A stretch of 64,000 nucleotides of DNA from a virus, in IMG/VR virus record IMGVR_UViG_3300025711_000007, positions 15,785 to 79,784 of that record; one strand, 5' to 3'. The position numbers were made by a program, and so were the translations under genes. Shown here piece after piece: positions 1 through 63,271 of the stretch (position 1 is its first letter; each line of letters begins with the position of its first letter). The notes beneath the pieces were generated by a model that made no database searches, was not told where the DNA came from, and was given only the letters and a program-made list of their open reading frames with translations.

Positions 1-2
1 CC

Positions 3-395
3 AGGCTCGGCCCGTGGTGGATCGCGTACGGCCACCGCATGTGCGACAGCATCGAGCGGGTCGGCATGCTCTCCAGGAACGGAGGGCTGGACGCCGCCGG
101 CCGCCGCGTCTACCCGCTGCGGGTGTGGAACGAGGCATCCGTGATGGCGTACCTGCGCGCGCGGAAGATCCCGCCGCCGCCCCGGCTGACGATCCTCAAG
201 AGGTCGATGACGGGCGTCTCGTTCCAGGAGGACGTGCTGATCGCGATCCGCGACAGCTACCCGGACGACTTCGAGAAGATCGTCGAGAAGTTCCCGTACC
301 TGCCGGCGAAGCTGGTCAGGTACGAGCTGAAGAGGAAGACATGGAAGCAGAGCACGTACGTCGACAAGTGGCGGACGTCTCTCAAGGACAGATGA
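3..395 (+). CDS. PAPS reductase-family protein, C-terminal part (5' truncated by window)
   Basis: Frame open from window start; GHRMCDSIER (G-x-R-x-x-D/E-S-x-x-R) and YPLRVWNEASVMAYL motifs; ATGA-coupled to ParB gene. Confidence 0.75.
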   Translation, partial: RLGPWWIAYGHRMCDSIERVGMLSRNGGLDAAGRRVYPLRVWNEASVMAYLRARKIPPPPRLTILKRSMTGVSFQEDVLIAIRDSYPDDFEKIVEKFPYLPAKLVRYELKRKTWKQSTYVDKWRTSLKDR

Positions 396-54117: not shown

Positions 54118-54516
54118 ATGGCGAAGAGTTTGTTCGTGTTGACCGTACCGACCACCATCACCGTCGCAATCGAAGCATCAGATGAGAAGGACGCTGTCGA
54201 GAAAGCCAAGACAGCTATCAAGTCGGTGCTCGGGACGTCGTTCGGTGTGATCAGCATCGTCGGAGATCCGAAGGTCATGCCGGTGACATCCGCTAAGTCA
54301 TCCAAGAAGGATGACGACGAGGAAGAGGAGGACGACGAGGAAGAGGAGGACGACGATGAAGAGGAGGACGACGAGGAAGAGGAGGACGACGAAGAAGAGG
54401 AGGACGACGAGGAAGATGAACCAAAGAAGTCTGATAAGAAGTCGGACAAGAAGCCCGATAAGAAGTCGGACAAGAAGCCCGAAGGCAAGAAGATCAAGAT
54501 CAAGCTCAAGGGATAA
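54118..54516 (+). CDS. Small protein with long acidic tract and Lys-rich tail
   Basis: Folded N-terminus, (DDEEEE)n tract, KK[SP]D repeats. Confidence 0.72.
   Translation: MAKSLFVLTVPTTITVAIEASDEKDAVEKAKTAIKSVLGTSFGVISIVGDPKVMPVTSAKSSKKDDDEEEEDDEEEEDDDEEEDDEEEEDDEEEEDDEEDEPKKSDKKSDKKPDKKSDKKPEGKKIKIKLKG
54313..54483 (+). repeat. Coding tandem repeats (6 x 18 bp, then 5 x 12 bp)
   Basis: GACGACGAGGAAGAGGAG-like units at 54313-54420; AAGAAGTCGGAC-like units at 54424-54483. Confidence 0.9.
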
Positions 54517-54518
54517 CT

Positions 54519-57500
54519 GTGAGTGACCGGCCGCCGACCCAATTCGCCGAGACGCCGAAGCAAGCTCGGCGTCTCATGGACGAGCTCTACAGGGAAGCTT
54601 ACCTGCGTGGGAGGGTAACCGCGGTCGACACCGAGTTCGTCCCCGTCACGCACGAGCCGGTCCTGCTGTCCTACTCCTGGGGCAGCGGGATCCGGCGCGT
54701 CGTGCGCGCCGAGCTGGTCAAGGAGTTCTTCGGGGACTGGCTGACCGACCGCCAGTCCAAGATCGCCTACCAGAACTACAAGGAGGACGTCGAGACCATG
54801 GAGGCGATCGGGCTGCCGCGGAGCGGCCTCGTCGACTCGTTCTACGCCGACGTCATGATCATGGGCGTCCTCCGCGACGAGACTCTCCTGAAGCACGGCC
54901 TCAAGGCTCAGATGTTCCACTGGCTGAAGTGGTTCCGCCGCGAGTACGGGCAGCTGTTCTGTTACGTGCCGCTCGGCAAGAAGAAGGCGATCGTCATGGA
55001 CCCTCGGCAGGTCATGGACGACCTCCCGCCGGACGCCGTGACCAACGCGGTGGTGAAGTGGGGCGGGTCGAAGGGTGACCACAAGACAGGCGAGATGACC
55101 CGGGACGCGTGGCGCCAGCTGATGGTCGACTACGCCGGCGACGACGCGGAGGGCACGCAGGTCCTGGCGGTGAAGCACCGCCGGTACCTGAAGCAGACCG
55201 GGTACTGGGACGCGTACGTCGCGGTCGACAGGCCGTTCACGCTCACGCTGATGCAGTGCGAGGACGCGGGCGCCTTCATCGACCAGCCGATCCTGCGCAA
55301 GATCCTCCGCAAGCAGGAGATCCGCATCATACGCGCGCAGCACTGCTTCCGCGCCGCCGCCGGGAACCCGAGCTTGAACCTGCGGTCCGGGCCGCAGATG
55401 AAGAAGCTGCTGTTCGACGAGTGGGGTTGGCCAGAGCACCCGTCGGTGGAGACCGACAGCGGCGGGCTGTCGATGGACAAGGAGGTGCTCCAGTGGTGGT
55501 TGAAAGAGCACAAGCTCCAGATGGCAGAGGTGAAGTTGGCGTTCAACAACGCCAGCACGATGAAGGGCACGTTCTTGCTCGGGATCCTGAACGGGTTGAG
55601 CGACGATGGTCGGCTGCGCTCAGACCTTAACCAGATAGGAGCCAAGACGTCTGGCAGGATCAGTTCAAGAAAATTTGACGTTTTGAAAGAGAAGACCAAG
55701 ACGCTCAAGTCTGGAGTAGTCAAGACTTGGATCGAGAAGAAGAAGGCCGGAGCGAACCTGCAGAATATCCCAGCTCGTAAGGAGAAGGATCCCGACGGCA
55801 TCCGCGGGGCGTTTCGAGCCCCGTACGTCGGGGAGGTCACCGCGTGGGGCGACGCGGCGACGGAGCCCCACAAGCTGCTCGTGGCCGACTACAGCGGCTT
55901 CCACCTGGTGCTCGTCATCCATTTCTGCGCGAAGTTGACCAACGAGTCGGCGATGCTCGAGATCATGAGGAAGTACAAGACGCCGAGCGCCGTGCACGTG
56001 TACACGACGATCGAGATGTTCAAGCACGCGAAGCCGCACAGGTGCGACGCGTCGACCTGCAAGGACAAGACCGGGAACTGGAAGAAGCACCACGGAGAGG
56101 GCAAGCTGTACTCGCTCAAGGAATTCACCATGGACGACTGGGCCATGGTGAAGCCGCTGTTCCCCGACCAGTACACCTACGCCAAGAACTGTGTTACGGG
56201 CGAGACGATGATCCTGACCGAGCGCGGGTACAGGAGGATCGACGAGCTATGCGCCGGAGCGCCCATCGGGCGGTCGAAGCCAGCGACCCCGATCCGCATC
56301 GTGACGCGCGACGGTCTGCGCGAGGTCGCCGACCTGTACCGAGGCGGGTCGCAGCCAGTGAAGAAGGTGACGACCGAGCTCGGGTTCGCGGTGCGGGCGA
56401 ACGACTCGCACGACATGCCGGTGGTGCGCGGCGGCAAGATCGAGATGGTGAAGGTCGCTGATATGGTGGTAGGTGACCTCTGCGTGATCAAGTTCGGGAG
56501 CGACGTCCACGGACAGTCGAGACAGGTCCCGCAGATGGTGCAGGGCGGCGCGACCAGCTACAAACCGATCGACCTGCCTCGGGAGCTGACGCCGGAGGTC
56601 GCCCGTTTGCTTGGCTACTACGTATCCGAGGGCTACTCGGTGAAGTCGAACACGACGTACTACACGTCGTTCGGATTCGGGCCTGGGGACGACGACATGG
56701 TGATCGACGTGGAGCGGTGCCTGCGATCGGTTGTCGGGTCGCGCCTGAGGGCAGCCGAGGAGGGACCAGCTCGCAGGCTCTACGTCACCAGCAAGGACCT
56801 GTACGAGTGGTGGAGGTTCCTCGGGTGCGGGGAGTCGTCCGAGGACAAGCAGATCCCTCCGTGCGTGCTGTCAGCTCCGTGGGACGTCAAGCGCGAGTTC
56901 CTGCGCGCGTACTTCGCCGGCGACGGCAGCGCCCACAACGGAGTCGTCAAGGCGACGAGCAAGTCGGAGCTCCTCATCCGCCAGCTTCAGGGGGAGCTGA
57001 TCAACGTCGGGATCGCATGCAGCGTGGTGTCAGGCGAGATCGTCGACTACGGCGTGTTCTGGTCCTTGCAAATCGCGGCAGCTCGATATGTCCAGCGGTT
57101 CGCTCAGTACGTCGGGTTCGCGTCGGAGCGCAAGCAGCAATCGGTGAGCTCGGTGTCGCGCTCCATCGACCACTCTACACTCAGGCTAGAAGGCTTCGAG
57201 GGTGAGCACCAGACGTTCTACGACCGCGCCGTCGGAGACCTCCGTCAGCGCGTCGGGCAGTGCATCCGAGGGACCTGTCGGTTCGGCGAGAACATCGTCA
57301 GGAGATTGGACCAGGTGGAGGCGCTCTCCGGAACCGAGGTCGAGAAGATGGTCGACGACGGATTATGGACGGTGCGCGTGACGTCGATCGAGCCGGACGG
57401 AGAGGCCGAGGTGTTCGACCTCTACGAGCCGGTGCACAAGATGATGGTCGCCAGCGGTCTATTGGTTGGTGACACCAACTTCGCCCTCATCTTCCTCGGG

Positions 57501-58049
57501 TCGCCGTGGACGCTCGCCTACAACACGGGGCGTGACGCGAACAACGAGGCGGAGCTCGAGGAGTGCAAGCGCCACTACGACGACTGGTACGCGCTGTACC
57601 CGGAGGTCGCGCTGTACCAGCGCCACATGGTCGACCACGCGTACGAGCACGGGTGGGTCCCCACGATCGGTGGGCGCCGCGGCCACGTGCGCCGGATGCT
57701 CGAGGGGTGCGACATCAACGGTAAGTACATCCACGACGACGACAAGCGCAAGAAGATGATCAAGCACGGGGAGAGGGTGGCGACCAACATCCCCGCACAA
57801 GGGAGCGAAGCGGACATCGTCAAGATGGCGCTCAACCTGATCCGGACCAGCAAGCCGATGCGGGAGATGCGGGTAGCTCCGCTGTTCCCGGTGCACGACG
57901 AGGTCGTGTGCGAGGGTCCGGCGCGCACCGCGGAGGCGGGGCTCGCGGAGCAGATCCGACTCATGAAGGAGCCGTACCGCGACCAGATGGAGGTCGAGCT
58001 TGCAGTAGAGGGAGGAATCGGAGATAACTGGATATCGGCCAAGCCGTAG
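54519..58049 (+). CDS. Family A DNA polymerase with 3'-5' exonuclease and intein
   Basis: VDTEF and YAGDDA (exo); SGRISS, NLQNIP, ADYS, AK..NF, NIPAQGSEAD, VHDE. Confidence 0.95.
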   Translation: MSDRPPTQFAETPKQARRLMDELYREAYLRGRVTAVDTEFVPVTHEPVLLSYSWGSGIRRVVRAELVKEFFGDWLTDRQSKIAYQNYKEDVETMEAIGLPRSGLVDSFYADVMIMGVLRDETLLKHGLKAQMFHWLKWFRREYGQLFCYVPLGKKKAIVMDPRQVMDDLPPDAVTNAVVKWGGSKGDHKTGEMTRDAWRQLMVDYAGDDAEGTQVLAVKHRRYLKQTGYWDAYVAVDRPFTLTLMQCEDAGAFIDQPILRKILRKQEIRIIRAQHCFRAAAGNPSLNLRSGPQMKKLLFDEWGWPEHPSVETDSGGLSMDKEVLQWWLKEHKLQMAEVKLAFNNASTMKGTFLLGILNGLSDDGRLRSDLNQIGAKTSGRISSRKFDVLKEKTKTLKSGVVKTWIEKKKAGANLQNIPARKEKDPDGIRGAFRAPYVGEVTAWGDAATEPHKLLVADYSGFHLVLVIHFCAKLTNESAMLEIMRKYKTPSAVHVYTTIEMFKHAKPHRCDASTCKDKTGNWKKHHGEGKLYSLKEFTMDDWAMVKPLFPDQYTYAKNCVTGETMILTERGYRRIDELCAGAPIGRSKPATPIRIVTRDGLREVADLYRGGSQPVKKVTTELGFAVRANDSHDMPVVRGGKIEMVKVADMVVGDLCVIKFGSDVHGQSRQVPQMVQGGATSYKPIDLPRELTPEVARLLGYYVSEGYSVKSNTTYYTSFGFGPGDDDMVIDVERCLRSVVGSRLRAAEEGPARRLYVTSKDLYEWWRFLGCGESSEDKQIPPCVLSAPWDVKREFLRAYFAGDGSAHNGVVKATSKSELLIRQLQGELINVGIACSVVSGEIVDYGVFWSLQIAAARYVQRFAQYVGFASERKQQSVSSVSRSIDHSTLRLEGFEGEHQTFYDRAVGDLRQRVGQCIRGTCRFGENIVRRLDQVEALSGTEVEKMVDDGLWTVRVTSIEPDGEAEVFDLYEPVHKMMVASGLLVGDTNFALIFLGSPWTLAYNTGRDANNEAELEECKRHYDDWYALYPEVALYQRHMVDHAYEHGWVPTIGGRRGHVRRMLEGCDINGKYIHDDDKRKKMIKHGERVATNIPAQGSEADIVKMALNLIRTSKPMREMRVAPLFPVHDEVVCEGPARTAEAGLAEQIRLMKEPYRDQMEVELAVEGGIGDNWISAKP
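56190..57473 (+). mobile_element. Intein with LAGLIDADG endonuclease (428 aa) in polymerase motif B
   Basis: Starts CVTGET; LLGYYVSEG and FLRAYFAGDG; ends VFDL...SGLLVGD before Thr; removal restores AKNTNF. Confidence 0.92.
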
Positions 58050-59327: not shown

Positions 59328-60281
59328 ATGAAGAGTGACAAGAACAAGAAGACGAAGAAGTCCAACGACGATCTCGACGAGATGCGGGAAGCGTTCCGAC
59401 GCCACAACGAGCGCGCCAACGGGGGCGGCGGTGGAGGGAAAAACGACTACATCAAGCTGGCGGACGGCAAGAACTGGCTGTTCATCTTGCCGAGGCCAGG
59501 AGAGCGGAAGTTCTACACCGAGGGTTGGACGCACTTCAACGTCGGGCCGAACAACCGGGCGATCCGGTGCATCGACGAGGCGCACATCAACCTCGAGAGA
59601 GGGCTCCCCGAGAGCGGGACGCGCTGTCCGCTTTGTAAGAAGTTCCTACGCGAGCAAGCTCGCGTGAACAGCGAGTACGAGAAGGGCGACGCGGACGGTC
59701 AAGCCGAGTGGAAGCGCGCCAAGGACAAGTGGTGCGCGCGTCACCAATACTACTCCAACACGCTTCGCGAAGACGACGAGGGTGACTTCGAGGTCAAGAT
59801 CCTCGCGTACGGACCTCAGATCTGGGGTCAGCTGATGAACTACTACGTCGGAGACGACACCGACGTCGGAGACTTCACCAACCCGGAGTCCGGGACGTGG
59901 TTGAACATCAAGAAGGACAACAAGGGCGGCGGAAACTCTAAACGACGACGCAACGTGGAGTACAAGGTGTTCCCGGTCGACGGTCCCGGCATCAATGATG
60001 CATGGGGCGCGATCAAGGACGCGCTCCACGACCTCGACGGAGCGGCGGGCAAGGTCATCTCCTCCGACGAGATGATCGCGATCATGAAGGGCGTCGACGC
60101 CGACAAGGATTCTGACGACGACGTCAGCGACAGCCGGAGCAAGCGTATCAAGCGGCGTGACGATGACGATGACGATGACGATGACGGTGACGATGACGGT
60201 GACGATGACGGTGACGATCGTCCCGTGAAATCTAAGCTCGGGAGCAAGATCAAGAAGCACCGTCGCGACGACAGGTCGTGA
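59328..60281 (+). CDS. Single-stranded DNA-binding protein (gp32-like)
   Basis: ILP, H..C...CPLC Zn site, GDFTNPESG..LNIKK, VEY, Asp-rich tail. Confidence 0.85.
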   Translation: MKSDKNKKTKKSNDDLDEMREAFRRHNERANGGGGGGKNDYIKLADGKNWLFILPRPGERKFYTEGWTHFNVGPNNRAIRCIDEAHINLERGLPESGTRCPLCKKFLREQARVNSEYEKGDADGQAEWKRAKDKWCARHQYYSNTLREDDEGDFEVKILAYGPQIWGQLMNYYVGDDTDVGDFTNPESGTWLNIKKDNKGGGNSKRRRNVEYKVFPVDGPGINDAWGAIKDALHDLDGAAGKVISSDEMIAIMKGVDADKDSDDDVSDSRSKRIKRRDDDDDDDDDGDDDGDDDGDDRPVKSKLGSKIKKHRRDDRS

Positions 60282-61273
60282 CGATGTCGAAGATGAGCAA
60301 GGATGCGAGAGCTGACATGGTGCGCGAGATGCGCGCGCGGCACAGCTCTCGCGCGAGCGTGCGACCCGCCGCACCGACCCCAGTGCAGGACAAGGCGTTC
60401 GGCAAGTTGTCGCTGGCGCTGTCGAAGAAGTACAAAGGAGAGGTCTTCACCACGATCGCTAACGGGACGCGCGCGTCGAGCATCGACGCCGTCCCGTCCG
60501 GGTGGCGGGAGCTCGACGACCTGGTCACCGGGGAGACGGATCGGGACGCCAAGACGGTGGCCGGGTCCGGTCTGGGGTGGCCGCGCGGCCGGATCATCGA
60601 GATATTCGGGGACGAAGGTGTTGGAAAAACCTCCCTCGCGCTCCACATCATCGTCGCCGTCCAGGGACAGGGTGAGCGCTGCGCGTTCGTGGACGCCGAG
60701 CACGCGCTCGACGTGTCGTACGCGGCCAAGCTGGGCGTCGACCTGGCCAAGCTCGTGCTCAACCAGCCCGACCGCGGCGGCGAGCAGGCCCTCGACATCG
60801 TCACATCGCTGTGTGAGAGCAAGCTGTTCGGGTGCGTGGTGGTCGACTCGGTGGCCGCGCTCACGCCGCTCGCCGAGCTCGAGCTGGACCTGGAGGACAG
60901 CGCGCAGCCCGGAGGTCACGCGCGCCTGATGTCGCGGGCGCTGCGCAAGCTGGCGTCGATCGTGAGGAAGACGGGGACGATCCTCGTCTTCCTCAATCAG
61001 ACCAGGATGAAGATCGGGATCAAGTACGGCAACCCGAAGACCACCACCGGAGGGAACGCGCTCAAGTTCTACGCGAGCGTGCGCTTCGAGATGGTCGTGG
61101 TGAAGACCAAGAAGAGGGGCGACCGCGTCCAGTTCCGCCGGACCAGGATCCGGGCGGTCAAGAACAAGGTCGCGCCGCCGTTCCGCGACGTGTTCGCCGA
61201 TGTCTACCCGAACAGAGGGATTGTGGACGTCCACGGCGACCCGGACCTCGGTGAGGGTTCAGATGATGACTGA
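60278..61273 (+). CDS. recA: RecA-family recombinase
   Basis: PRGRIIEIFGDEGVGKT, FVDAEHALD, VVDSVAALTP, ARLMSRALRKL, TTGGNALKFYAS, VKNKVAPPF. Confidence 0.96.
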   Translation: MTMSKMSKDARADMVREMRARHSSRASVRPAAPTPVQDKAFGKLSLALSKKYKGEVFTTIANGTRASSIDAVPSGWRELDDLVTGETDRDAKTVAGSGLGWPRGRIIEIFGDEGVGKTSLALHIIVAVQGQGERCAFVDAEHALDVSYAAKLGVDLAKLVLNQPDRGGEQALDIVTSLCESKLFGCVVVDSVAALTPLAELELDLEDSAQPGGHARLMSRALRKLASIVRKTGTILVFLNQTRMKIGIKYGNPKTTTGGNALKFYASVRFEMVVVKTKKRGDRVQFRRTRIRAVKNKVAPPFRDVFADVYPNRGIVDVHGDPDLGEGSDDD

Positions 61274-61768: not shown

Positions 61769-63271
61769 ATGAGATTGATTGGTTACTTGGTCATGTGTGT
61801 AGCGGTCGGCTGCGCGTCGCCGCCCACGTCCCGCGCATCGCAACGGTCGACCGCGGCGTGCACCTCCGCCAGGAGCTTCGGCGCGATCCCGGACGACGGC
61901 GAGGACGACCGGGTCGCCCTGCAGGCGGCGCTGGACGCGTGCGCCGGGGCCGTGGTCGACCTCGAGCCTGGGGTCTACCGCGTGGTCACGCCGGCGCGCC
62001 CCGCTGGCCGCCCGCTGGCGATGCTGAGCCTGCCCGACGGCACGTCCCTGGAGGGCAGGAGCGCGGCGTCCACGACGATCGAGTTCTCCGGCGACAACGG
62101 GAAGCTCGACTGGCGAGGGTTCCAGCTCGCCAGCGGGACCGCGCTGCGGCGTCTGAAGCTGGTCAGCTCGTTCGTCGCTGGGTCCACCGTGGAGCAGACC
62201 CACGTCGCCAGGGTGGACGGTCCAGCCCGCGGCGTCCACCTGCAGGACGTCGAGTGCACCCACCCGCAGAACGGGAGCAAGAGCGGGGATTGCTTCCAGG
62301 TGGTCGGGTACCCCCCGGACCAGCTGGTCTGGGACGTCGAGGTCGACCACGTCGACGTCAAGAACGCGGGGAGGTCTGGAGTGGCGATCCACTCCGGGCT
62401 GCGCGGCACCCTACGACCCGACGGCCACTGGACGTCGCGCATCCACGACAACCACTTCCGCGACGTCAGCGACCAGCCGGTCGACGGCGAGGGGTCGGGC
62501 GGCATCGACGGGCTGGAGATCGACCACAACGTGTTCGACTACCCGGCGAACATCGAGGGCTCGGCGTCAATCCAGATCCAGTCGAGCTCGCGCGTCTTCA
62601 TCCACGACAACGTGATGAACGGCCGCGGGGTCGACCTCTACGGGTGCGGCGGCTGCGTCCTCGAGCACAACAGGATCGACCAGACGGCGCCGGGGTTTCC
62701 CGCCGTCCAGCTTAGGAAGCAGGGGAGCGGCGTCAAGTTCGTCGACGAGTCGTACAGCCGGTCCCAGAGCTCCGGGACCGGCGCGGTCGTGGTCGTGGCT
62801 CAGAAGTTGAGCGCGCCGGACAACGTCGCGTTCGACCACGTCACGTTCGTCCAGCGCACGCCGGCTCCGGTGATCTCGACGATCGGGATCGCCGGGGTCG
62901 ACGTCCTCAACAGCACGTTGGTTTACGACGGGACCGGGTACATGCCGGGGATGCGGGTCGACGCGCTGTCGTTCTCCGGGTCGGGTGCGAGCGTGAACCC
63001 GTCGTGCACCGACAACCAGGTACCGAGCGACAACCCCGGCGTGAGGACGACCAGGATCCGCGTCCGGGACAACGCGGTCTTCGGTCCGTACAGGTCCGTG
63101 GTCGTCGTGAGCGGGTCGTACTGCGGGACCGGGTCGCTGGAGGTGACCCGCAACGTCGCGACGGGACCGCTGCAGGGTCTGCGCTGCGAGGGAGCCGCGG
63201 TCGGGTCCGGGATCACGGGACCCGTGGTCGCCAAGGACAACAGCATCCCCGCCAGCTCCTGCGCGATGTGA
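61769..63271 (+). CDS. Predicted lipoprotein with right-handed beta-helix (pectin lyase-like)
   Basis: MRLIGYLVMCVAVGC lipobox-like signal; FGAIPDDGEDDRVALQAALD; repeated IHDN/IDHN strands. Confidence 0.8.
   Translation: MRLIGYLVMCVAVGCASPPTSRASQRSTAACTSARSFGAIPDDGEDDRVALQAALDACAGAVVDLEPGVYRVVTPARPAGRPLAMLSLPDGTSLEGRSAASTTIEFSGDNGKLDWRGFQLASGTALRRLKLVSSFVAGSTVEQTHVARVDGPARGVHLQDVECTHPQNGSKSGDCFQVVGYPPDQLVWDVEVDHVDVKNAGRSGVAIHSGLRGTLRPDGHWTSRIHDNHFRDVSDQPVDGEGSGGIDGLEIDHNVFDYPANIEGSASIQIQSSSRVFIHDNVMNGRGVDLYGCGGCVLEHNRIDQTAPGFPAVQLRKQGSGVKFVDESYSRSQSSGTGAVVVVAQKLSAPDNVAFDHVTFVQRTPAPVISTIGIAGVDVLNSTLVYDGTGYMPGMRVDALSFSGSGASVNPSCTDNQVPSDNPGVRTTRIRVRDNAVFGPYRSVVVVSGSYCGTGSLEVTRNVATGPLQGLRCEGAAVGSGITGPVVAKDNSIPASSCAM

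What the first reader, a model, noticed from the sequence alone, without database searches (positions are those of the whole stretch)
55887..57500. Family A polymerase with a remodelled nucleotide-binding pocket
Seen: motif A is DYSGFHLV (canonical DYSQIELR), and spliced motif B is YTYAKNTNFALIFLG (canonical RRSAKAINFGLIYG). In E. coli Pol I numbering, Q708G, E710H, R712V, R754Y and Y766F co-occur, while D705, K758, F762, R668, N845/Q849, H881-D882-E883 and the exonuclease motifs are retained. Established: E710 is the ribose steric gate and interacts with Y766; R754 contacts the triphosphate. Inference: the paired changes look selected rather than decayed, and may indicate altered sugar or base selectivity (modified nucleotides or rNTP tolerance).
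Basis: partly seen in the sequence, partly recalled or inferred. Interest (0 to 1): 0.85.

Follow-up and report, generated by a model that had tools for sequence, protein, structure and literature searches.

The report
Phage DNA polymerase with histidine sugar-gate
The only DNA polymerase found in this uncultured soil-type phage is an intact Pol I-family enzyme in which the "universal" glutamate-tyrosine pair that checks the sugar of each incoming nucleotide is replaced by histidine-phenylalanine, with a new glutamate on the neighbouring helix; the set is conserved in its close relatives, but its effect on substrate choice is untested and nothing in the genomes points to unusual DNA.

Summary
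ORF 54519-58049 (+) is a family A DNA polymerase carrying a 428-aa LAGLIDADG intein (56190-57473) inside motif B. Intein-free homologues read YTYAKNTNFALIFLG, which confirms the splice junction. Motif A is DYSGFHLV.

The changes fall into two layers:
- **Older, family-wide:** Q708G, R712V and R754Y are shared by most of a wider uncultured phage PolA family.

Among 116 aligned polymerases, a non-Glu gate (64 His, 1 Gln) occurs only with Phe766 and Glu852. Glu852 never occurs with Glu710. The tree needs 2-3 separate events to explain this.

My reading is a rewired sugar gate that still builds ordinary DNA, with the carboxylate moved from motif A to motif 6. Two H-type genome fragments that together span the genome map lack PurZ, DpdA/TGT, ThyA-like and MazG genes. 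ThyX occurs in both His-type and Glu-type relatives. So "selected, not decayed" is supported, while altered sugar or base selectivity is unsupported but not excluded.

This scan has already reported the same clade on other genomes (e1-6073756, e1-6073769).

The parts
54519..58049 (+). Family A DNA polymerase precursor (1176 aa; 3'-5' exonuclease plus polymerase domains, with one intein). The GTG start is supported by N-terminal residues conserved in homologues.
   Evidence: PF00476 1.9e-39; homologues 646-1469 aa long, down to 27% identity; Klenow E 6.5e-72 with the family profile.
54624..54638 (+). ExoI motif VDTEF (catalytic Asp and Glu).
   Evidence: D37 and E39 are invariant in A1.
55653..55673 (+). 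TGR-type motif GRISSRK (R380 = Klenow R668). It is followed by a family-specific insert of about 27 aa before NLQNIP (55755-55772).
   Evidence: model strands 386-395 and 401-410.
55887..55910 (+). Motif A DYSGFHLV. D457 is the catalytic Asp (D705). H462 (55902-55904) replaces the steric-gate Glu710.
56172..56189 (+). N-terminal half of motif B (O helix): YTYAKN. Y = R754 position, K = K758.
56190..57473 (+). 428-aa LAGLIDADG intein splitting the O helix between N558 and T559 (P0004 numbering). It starts with Cys, ends Gly-Asp, and the next extein residue is Thr.
   Evidence: PF14528 1.9e-11; intein-free homologues; the same intein, always ending LLVGD, in 10 homologues.
57474..57500 (+). C-terminal half of motif B: TNFALIFLG. 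F988 = F762. F992 (57492-57494) replaces Tyr766.
57786..57824 (+). Motif 6 NIPAQGSEADIVK. N = N845, Q = Q849. E1097 (57807-57809) replaces Klenow Ala852 and is the third member of the co-varying set.
   Evidence: The model places it in the long palm helix 647-683.
57891..57905 (+). Motif C VHDEV (H881-D882-E883).

Best explanation
This is the working replicative DNA polymerase of an uncultured, high-GC myovirus of about 117 kb. After the intein splices out and restores the O helix, the enzyme most likely copies ordinary DNA from ordinary dNTPs.

Its sugar-checking site is wired differently from canonical family A enzymes. In those, the Glu710 carboxylate sits under C2' of the incoming nucleotide. 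It is held there by hydrogen bonds to Tyr766 (O helix), Gln849 (motif 6) and the TGR arginine.

In this clade:
- The gate side chain is His462.
- The tyrosine hydroxyl is gone (Phe).
- A new glutamate appears one helical turn after Gln849 on the palm helix (Klenow 852).

I infer that the carboxylate has been moved from motif A to motif 6. From there it could orient the histidine and/or pair with the TGR arginine, while the imidazole ring keeps blocking a 2'-OH.

The likely order of events is Tyr to Phe first, since that change is seen alone in relatives. Glu to Gln or His would then follow together with Ala852 to Glu.

**Shown:** the substitutions, their conservation, their strict co-occurrence, and the lack of known base-modification genes.
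**Inferred:** the His-Glu/Arg contact, the retained rNTP exclusion and the order of events.
For: 1. **Family membership, fold and residue equivalences.** Pfam; profile alignment to Klenow; AlphaFold model pLDDT 92.4; best structural matches are Bst and Klenow Pol I, target TM 0.81-0.86.
2. **Strict co-occurrence.** Among 116 aligned polymerases the states at 710/766/852 are H/F/E in 64, Q/F/E in 1, and Glu710 with a non-acidic 852 in all 51 others. E/F/A occurs in 3. In a wider survey of 181 PolAs with intact catalytic columns, the only real non-Glu gates are this clade, P0085 (Gln) and P0220 (Asp).
3. **Repeated events.** A tree built without the three trait columns needs 3 changes. Well-supported branches force at least 2. 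P0064 (E/Y/A) nests between P0066 (H/F/E) and the main clade, and P0085 (Q/F/E) is distant.
4. **Purifying selection.** Neighbouring codons vary synonymously across 12 independent contigs.
5. **Structural plausibility.** In Pol theta the gate Glu hydrogen-bonds the motif-B Tyr, the motif-6 Gln and the TGR Arg (PMC6158600). Residue 852 is i+3 from that Gln in a modelled helix. Glu852 never coexists with Glu710.
6. **Precedent for a His gate.** His760 is the presumptive steric gate of Pol III alpha (PMC8485763). Y766F behaves like wild type (PMC4882331; PMC8599892).
7. **Genome content.** G000 and G001 (H type) are syntenic with the complete 117.9-kb E-type genome G005. No PurZ, TGT, ThyA or MazG was found in H-type records. 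ThyX is present in both types.
Against: - There is no biochemical data for any member.
- I could not measure the His462-Glu670-Arg380 distances, because model coordinates are not returned. The contact is inferred from helix geometry and from a Pol theta description.
- Only 2-3 independent events exist. The sign test cannot reach significance, and the AU test does not reject a single origin for the main clade plus P0066 (p 0.33).
- P0085 is a single 3-kb metagenomic contig with no close relatives.
- Many phage ORFs have no Pfam match, so an unknown nucleotide-modifying pathway cannot be excluded. G000 and G001 are 68% and 76% complete fragments of two different phages.
- The family also lacks Arg754, described as non-mutable in Taq (PMC8599892). 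So the triphosphate site differs too, in a way I cannot explain.
Confidence: 0.6

Rival explanations
1. The pocket is adapted to a different substrate. The His/Phe/Glu set relaxes or changes sugar selection (rNTP tolerance, 2'-modified or arabino sugars), or suits a modified base that the phage puts into its DNA before replication.
For: The changed residues are the ones that read the sugar (PMC4882331, PMC6158600). Phe at Tyr766 is the one substitution shared by both convergent DpoZ clades of 2-aminoadenine phages (PMC10201439; PMC8599892). Arg754, a gamma-phosphate contact, is also lost. Many ORFs in these genomes are unannotated. G000 has a PAPS-reductase-like ORF and G001 an MT-A70 methyltransferase.
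Against: No PurZ, TGT/DpdA, ThyA-like hydroxymethylase or MazG was found in five H-type records. ThyX, which makes normal dTMP, is present in both H-type and E-type phages. No gene found by family search or tblastn is both H-type-specific and nucleotide-related, and the genomes are syntenic with the E-type G005. The PAPS-reductase-like ORF is absent from G001, and MT-A70 acts after replication. Phe766 also occurs with a normal Glu gate in five sequences. His is bulky, so a relaxed gate is not expected (gate-opening mutants are Gly or Ala, PMC6158600). The DpoZ authors judged Phe766 unlikely to explain base choice.
Confidence: 0.15
2. Same substrates, different kinetics. The rewired triad changes fidelity or the open/closed checkpoint (mutator or antimutator behaviour, speed, pH or metal dependence) rather than sugar or base choice, and was selected for that reason.
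For: E710 and Y766 are the classic fidelity-checkpoint residues. E710A and Y766A shift the open/closed equilibrium (PMC3715850 abstract; PMC4882331). The set is fixed over a clade spanning 65-100% identity, which fits a selected phenotype.
Against: Y766F behaves like wild type in simulation and in vivo. One nested lineage (P0064) has the canonical E/Y/A set in the same genomic setting, which suggests the two states are close to interchangeable. Nothing here measures kinetics.
Confidence: 0.2
3. The gene is a decayed or inactive polymerase, or the substitutions are assembly or sequencing errors.
For: Three residues described as universally conserved or non-mutable (E710, Y766, R754) are all changed, and the gene is interrupted by an intein with an atypical Gly-Asp end.
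Against: The frame is open over 1176 codons. All catalytic and exonuclease residues are kept. The same states are found in 64 homologues from independent assemblies, with synonymous variation nearby. The model is confident. It is the only polymerase found, and it sits among helicase, primase and RecA genes. The Gly-Asp intein end is conserved in 10 homologues.
Confidence: 0.03

Closest known systems
Bacterial DNA polymerase I large fragments (Klenow, Bst LF, KlenTaq)
   Same: Same two-domain architecture (3'-5' exonuclease plus polymerase) and fold: Foldseek target TM 0.81-0.86, and profile E 6.5e-72 to Klenow. Same catalytic Asp705/Asp882/Glu883, Lys758, Phe762, Arg668, Asn845/Gln849 and His881, and same ExoI-III residues.
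   Different: Only 19-20% identity and no 5' nuclease domain. Gate Glu710 is His, Tyr766 is Phe, Ala852 is Glu, Arg754 is Tyr, Gln708 is Gly and Arg712 is Val. There are extra inserts after the TGR motif and before the O helix, and an intein in motif B.
The wider uncultured phage PolA family with DYSGFEL / Y..(A/S)K..NFNLLYGG motifs (for example P0067 in the complete 117.9-kb virus record G005)
   Same: Sister enzymes at 38-54% identity, in syntenic myovirus genomes of about 115-120 kb. They share Gly708, Phe709, Tyr754 and the same inserts.
   Different: They keep the canonical Glu710/Tyr766/Ala852 set. A few have Phe766 with Glu710.
DpoZ polymerases of 2-aminoadenine (ZTGC-DNA) phages (phiVC8-like and Wayne-like; PMC8599892, PMC10201439)
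   Same: Phage family A replicases with Phe at the Tyr766 (B4) position.
   Different: DpoZ keeps the Glu gate and the O-helix Arg and comes with PurZ. No PurZ homologue was found in five H-type records. There is no close sequence relationship.
E. coli Pol III alpha (family C) steric gate His760 (PMC8485763)
   Same: A histidine side chain placed against the sugar of the incoming dNTP in a high-fidelity replicase, so His works as a sugar gate.
   Different: Unrelated fold and family. The histidine there sits on the fingers helix, not in motif A.

Membership tests
Family A DNA polymerase (Pfam PF00476, Pol I-like) | Significant match to the family profile and a Klenow-like fold | tested here: met
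   PF00476 1.9e-39, above the cut-off. Family profile against Klenow 6.5e-72. Model against Bst and Klenow, target TM 0.81-0.86.
Family A DNA polymerase (Pfam PF00476, Pol I-like) | Catalytic carboxylates of motif A (D705) and motif C (D882, E883), motif B Lys758 and an aromatic residue at 762, and the TGR arginine | tested here: met
   D457, D700, E701, K557, F561 and R380 are invariant in A1 and aligned to Klenow.
Family A DNA polymerase (Pfam PF00476, Pol I-like) | Steric-gate Glu (A2, E710) hydrogen-bonded to the O-helix Tyr (B4, Y766), described as universally conserved (PMC4882331) | tested here: not met
   His and Phe in the window and in 64 homologues. This is a conserved feature of the family rather than a criterion for belonging to it.
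Family A DNA polymerase (Pfam PF00476, Pol I-like) | O-helix Arg (B1, R754) contacting the gamma-phosphate, described as non-mutable in Taq (PMC8599892) | tested here: not met
   Tyr in 95 of 116 aligned family members, Asn in 3, and Arg only in deep branches and outgroups. No compensating basic residue was found.
Proofreading-proficient PolA (DnaQ-like 3'-5' exonuclease) | ExoI DxE, ExoII NxxxD-type and ExoIII YxxxD residues | tested here: met
   D37, E39, D90, Y205 and D209 are invariant. The Pfam exonuclease match is weak for the window (0.0041, below the cut-off) but is precomputed for several relatives.
DpoZ (2-aminoadenine-specific PolA) | Genome encodes PurZ (adenylosuccinate-synthetase homologue) and its partners (MazZ, DatZ) | tested here: not met
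   PF00709 gave 0 of 5 H-type records and PF03819 (MazG) gave 0 of 5. The records are fragments, but G000 and G001 together span the genome map.
UDG-fused PolA of phages with T-modified genomes (SP15-like / N4-like; PMC13697223, PMC10201439) | N-terminal family 4 uracil-DNA glycosylase domain fused to the polymerase | tested here: not met
   Pfam finds only the DNA_pol_A, exonuclease and LAGLIDADG domains. The protein starts directly with the exonuclease domain.
Intein (Hint domain with LAGLIDADG homing endonuclease) | Cys/Ser at the first residue, an endonuclease domain, His-Asn at the end, Cys/Ser/Thr as the next extein residue, and clean excision restoring a conserved host motif | tested here: inconclusive
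   Cys1, LAGLIDADG_3 at 1.9e-11, Thr at +1, and exact restoration of motif B as in intein-free homologues. The end is Gly-Asp instead of His-Asn, conserved in 10 homologues. Splicing itself was not tested.

The most novel reading that the evidence does not exclude
The His/Phe/Glu pocket, together with the loss of Arg754, gives these phage replicases a real change in substrate range. They might tolerate or prefer nucleotides with a non-standard sugar or triphosphate environment (rNTPs, 2'-modified or other non-canonical dNTPs). The phages would then make DNA that is chemically unusual, through a pathway encoded by genes that are currently unannotated.
Probability: 0.12. Interest if true: 0.9.

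Novelty: new variant of a known kind. Interest (0 to 1): 0.58.

Why it matters
Glu710 and Tyr766 are textbook residues. They are described as universally conserved in family A polymerases and are central to how these enzymes keep RNA building blocks out and check base-pair geometry.

A whole natural clade runs on His/Phe with a relocated glutamate, and a canonical E/Y/A enzyme is nested inside it. This gives a ready-made triple-mutant cycle for testing how the sugar gate really works. It also offers a new natural scaffold for polymerase engineering, for example for XNA or modified nucleotides.

The result also shows that conserved-position logos drawn from cultured organisms understate what uncultured phages tolerate. 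That includes loss of the "non-mutable" O-helix arginine across a large family.

If the pocket does change substrate range, it would point to unrecognised DNA chemistry in abundant soil phages.

Tried and rejected
- **Sequencing or assembly error:** rejected (64 homologues; synonymous variation around fixed codons).
- **Five substitutions as one event:** rejected. Q708G, R712V and R754Y are family-wide, while E710H and Y766F are clade-specific.
- **DpoZ-like 2-aminoadenine system:** rejected (no PurZ or MazG).
- **Deazaguanine (TGT/DpdA) or hydroxymethyl-pyrimidine (ThyA-like) routes:** no matches.
- **H-type-specific nucleotide gene:** tblastn comparison of G000 and G001 with the complete E-type genome G005 found none. 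The only ORF shared by both H-type records and missing from G005 is a low-complexity acidic protein upstream of the polymerase.
- **Basic residue compensating for Arg754 to Tyr:** a scan for specificity-determining positions found none.
- **Fourth co-varying position** (P0004 residue 465, Met to Leu): not strict, because Leu, Ile and Val also occur with Glu gates.
- **Cultured relatives:** tblastn against 50,697 phage records gave nothing above 33% identity.
- **Source names for NCBI-derived homologues:** none on record.
- **Relatives of the Gln-gate sequence P0085:** none closer than 48% identity.
- **A first regex survey of motifs** gave false combinations and was replaced by profile alignment.
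Context came from IMG/VR records instead.
- **Model coordinates** are not returned by the tools, so no distances could be measured.
Full report
**What is there.** The window is the last 64 kb of a 79.8-kb IMG/VR virus record (G000, CheckV 68% complete). It is a myovirus with 66% GC. It carries portal, capsid-like and tail-sheath genes, followed by a replication module:
- a UvsW-like helicase, DUF4031, a DnaB-like helicase and a Toprim primase;
- two unknown ORFs;
- the polymerase;
- a RecA homologue.

ORF 54519-58049 (+) encodes 1176 aa matching Pfam DNA_pol_A (1.9e-39) and LAGLIDADG_3. Motif A (DYSGFHLV) lies at 55887-55910. YTYAKN lies at 56172-56189, a 428-aa intein at 56190-57473, and TNFALIFLG at 57474-57500.

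**Splice junction and residue equivalences.** A search of 5.8 billion proteins returned about 100 family members. Many come from contigs of 110-120 kb. Intein-free members such as P0004 (749 aa, 83% identical) read PDQYTYAKNTNFALIFLGSP. So the predicted spliced motif B is right.

A profile of 40 family members aligns to Klenow at E 6.5e-72. It pairs D-Y-S-G-F-E/H-L with D705-Y-S-Q-I-E710-L, and Y-x-x-A-K-x-x-N-F-x-L-x-Y/F with R754-R-S-A-K758-A-I-N-F762-G-L-I-Y766. This confirms Q708G, E710H, R712V, R754Y and Y766F.

The exonuclease residues are invariant or nearly so. So are R668, K758, F762, N845/Q849 and H881-D882-E883. An AlphaFold model of P0004 has pLDDT 92.4. Its best structural matches are Bst and Klenow Pol I (target TM 0.81-0.86, 19-20% identity).

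**Two layers of change.** Aligning the family with bacterial Pol I references shows two layers.
- *Old changes.* Gly708, Phe709, a non-Arg at 712 and Tyr754 are shared by most of a wider phage family that otherwise keeps DYSGFEL and NFNLLYGG. Tyr754 occurs in 95 of 116 sequences. Asn occurs in 3, and Arg only in deep branches and outgroups.
- *Clade-specific changes.* His710 and Phe766 are confined to the window's clade (members at least 65% identical to the window).

**A third linked residue.** I scanned for positions fixed in the His clade but rare in the Glu relatives. Motif 6 stood out: QGSEAD against QGSAAD. In P0004 numbering this is E670, equivalent to Klenow A852. In the window it is codon 57807-57809, outside the finding's range.

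States at 710/766/852 across 116 aligned polymerases:

| State | Count |
|---|---|
| H/F/E | 64 |
| Q/F/E (P0085) | 1 |
| E/F/A | 3 |
| Glu710, Tyr766, non-acidic 852 | 48 |

No sequence has a non-Glu gate with Tyr766 or without Glu852. None has Glu852 with Glu710. A profile-based survey of 181 diverse PolAs found only one further real exception at the gate, a conservative Asp in P0220.

**How many events.** I built a maximum-likelihood tree without the three trait columns.
- P0066 (H/F/E) falls outside a group in which P0064 (E/Y/A) is sister to the main H/F/E clade.
- P0085 (Q/F/E) sits in a distant subfamily.
- The best tree needs 3 changes. Strongly supported branches force at least 2.
- An AU test does not reject a single origin for P0066 plus the main clade (p 0.33).

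With so few independent pairs no sign test can reach significance, so this is a qualitative pattern. P0085 is a singleton with no close relatives. Phe766 with a Glu gate in several lineages suggests that Tyr to Phe is the permissive first step. The Gln state is a plausible intermediate, because GAG to CAG to CAC is one base at a time.

**Selection.** Eleven other viral contigs keep the His and Phe codons, and the five in which motif 6 could be read keep the Glu codon. The neighbouring Ser, Gly, Asp and Leu codons vary synonymously. This excludes assembly error and indicates purifying selection.

**Mechanistic reading.** Published descriptions fit a physical link between the three positions.
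- The closed complex contains a hydrogen-bonded Y766-E710 pair, and a long palm helix interacts with both residues (PMC4882331).
- In Pol theta the gate Glu carboxylate hydrogen-bonds the motif-B Tyr, the motif-6 Gln and the TGR Arg (PMC6158600).

Residue 852 is three positions after that Gln, inside a modelled helix (residues 647-683). That puts it on roughly the same helix face.

I therefore infer that the carboxylate has moved from motif A to motif 6. There it can orient His462 and/or keep the TGR arginine paired. The tyrosine hydroxyl is then no longer needed.

Histidine is bulky and is the presumptive steric gate of Pol III alpha (PMC8485763). Gate-opening mutants are Gly or Ala (PMC6158600). 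Y766F behaves like wild type. So continued exclusion of rNTPs is the most economical expectation. I could not measure distances, because model coordinates are not returned.

**Is unusual DNA chemistry indicated?** I could not find support for it.
- G000 and a relative, G001 (89 kb, polymerase 75% identical), are syntenic with a complete 117.9-kb genome of a Glu-gate relative (G005). Together they span its map.
- Family searches of five H-type records found no PurZ, TGT/DpdA, ThyA-like enzyme or MazG.
- ThyX is present in G000 and in G005.
- G001 has an MT-A70 methyltransferase, which acts after replication.
- G000 has a PAPS-reductase-like ORF that is absent from G001.
- No nucleotide-related gene is specific to the His-type genomes.

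Many ORFs remain without any family match, so an unknown pathway is not excluded.

Phe at position 766 is reported as unique to the two DpoZ clades (PMC10201439, PMC8599892). Here it also occurs in ordinary Glu-gate enzymes. The DpoZ hallmark PurZ is missing.

**Comparison with what is known.** No cultured phage in 50,697 GenBank records has a polymerase more than 33% identical. The 2023 reclassification of PolAs treats the gate (A2) and the O-helix residues as highly conserved across its 19 clusters. In the passages I searched it reports no His-gate cluster. I did not find a published natural His gate in family A.

Within this scan, the same clade was already reported on other genomes (e1-6073756, e1-6073769). 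His gates were also noted in other PolA lineages (e1-5351562, e1-6007816, e1-6074538, e1-5848591). I did not test those notes.

**Verdict.**
- "Selected, not decayed" is supported.
- "Altered sugar or base selectivity" remains an untested possibility with no genomic support.

I file this as a new variant of a known kind, with moderate to high interest for polymerase enzymology.

Noticed in passing
window 56190-57473, and homologues P0007-P0091: This polymerase family is an intein hot spot with four insertion sites, each inside a catalytic motif. In P0004 numbering they are: after T377 (TGR motif, HNH-type intein of about 305 aa); at about 455 (just before the motif A Asp, 269 aa); after N558 (motif B, the window's LAGLIDADG type); and after G668 (motif 6, directly before the new Glu670). 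P0033, P0037 and P0058 carry two inteins each.
   Followed up: partly
window 57459-57476: The motif-B intein ends LLVGD, followed by Thr, instead of the usual His-Asn. This Gly-Asp end is identical in 10 homologues, so it is conserved rather than a defect. The other three intein types in the family end in HN.
   Followed up: partly
window 56172-56174 (Tyr at the Klenow R754 position): The O-helix arginine that contacts the gamma-phosphate, called non-mutable in Taq, is Tyr in 95 of 116 family members and Asn in 3. No compensating basic residue turned up in a scan for specificity-determining positions. This is unexplained.
   Followed up: partly
window 55674-55754: A family-specific insert of about 27 aa lies between the TGR motif (GRISSRK) and NLQNIP. 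It is modelled as a beta-hairpin (P0004 strands 386-395 and 401-410). A second insert of about 40 aa, rich in Lys, His and Cys, precedes the O helix.
   Followed up: no
window 54118-54516: A 132-aa protein with a long Asp/Glu run followed by KKSDKK repeats ends 3 nt before the polymerase start. A counterpart exists in the H-type relative G001 but not in the Glu-gate genome G005.
   Followed up: partly
window 59328-60281 and 60278-61273: A 317-aa protein with a CPLC-type motif and an acidic Asp-rich tail has no Pfam match and may be a single-strand DNA-binding protein. It overlaps by 4 nt the start of a phage RecA homologue (PF00154, 1.5e-81).
   Followed up: no
G000:C1:15502-15963 (runs into window 1-179): A PAPS-reductase-like ORF (PF01507, 6.5e-8) is present in this record but not in four related records. 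It is not linked to the polymerase type.
   Followed up: partly
L013:7169-8080 (G000) and G005:C1:70264-70860: A flavin-dependent thymidylate synthase, ThyX (PF02511, 5e-42), is encoded by both His-gate and Glu-gate phages of this group.
   Followed up: yes
L018:16137-17165 (-), L018:1657-2352 (+), both in G001: The 89-kb relative encodes a full-length RuvB homologue (RuvB_N 1.1e-46, plus the lid and C-terminal domains) and an MT-A70 family methyltransferase.
   Followed up: no
window 61769-63271: A 500-aa right-handed beta-helix / pectate-lyase-like protein with an N-terminal hydrophobic segment sits at the end of the replication module. It may be a depolymerase.
   Followed up: no
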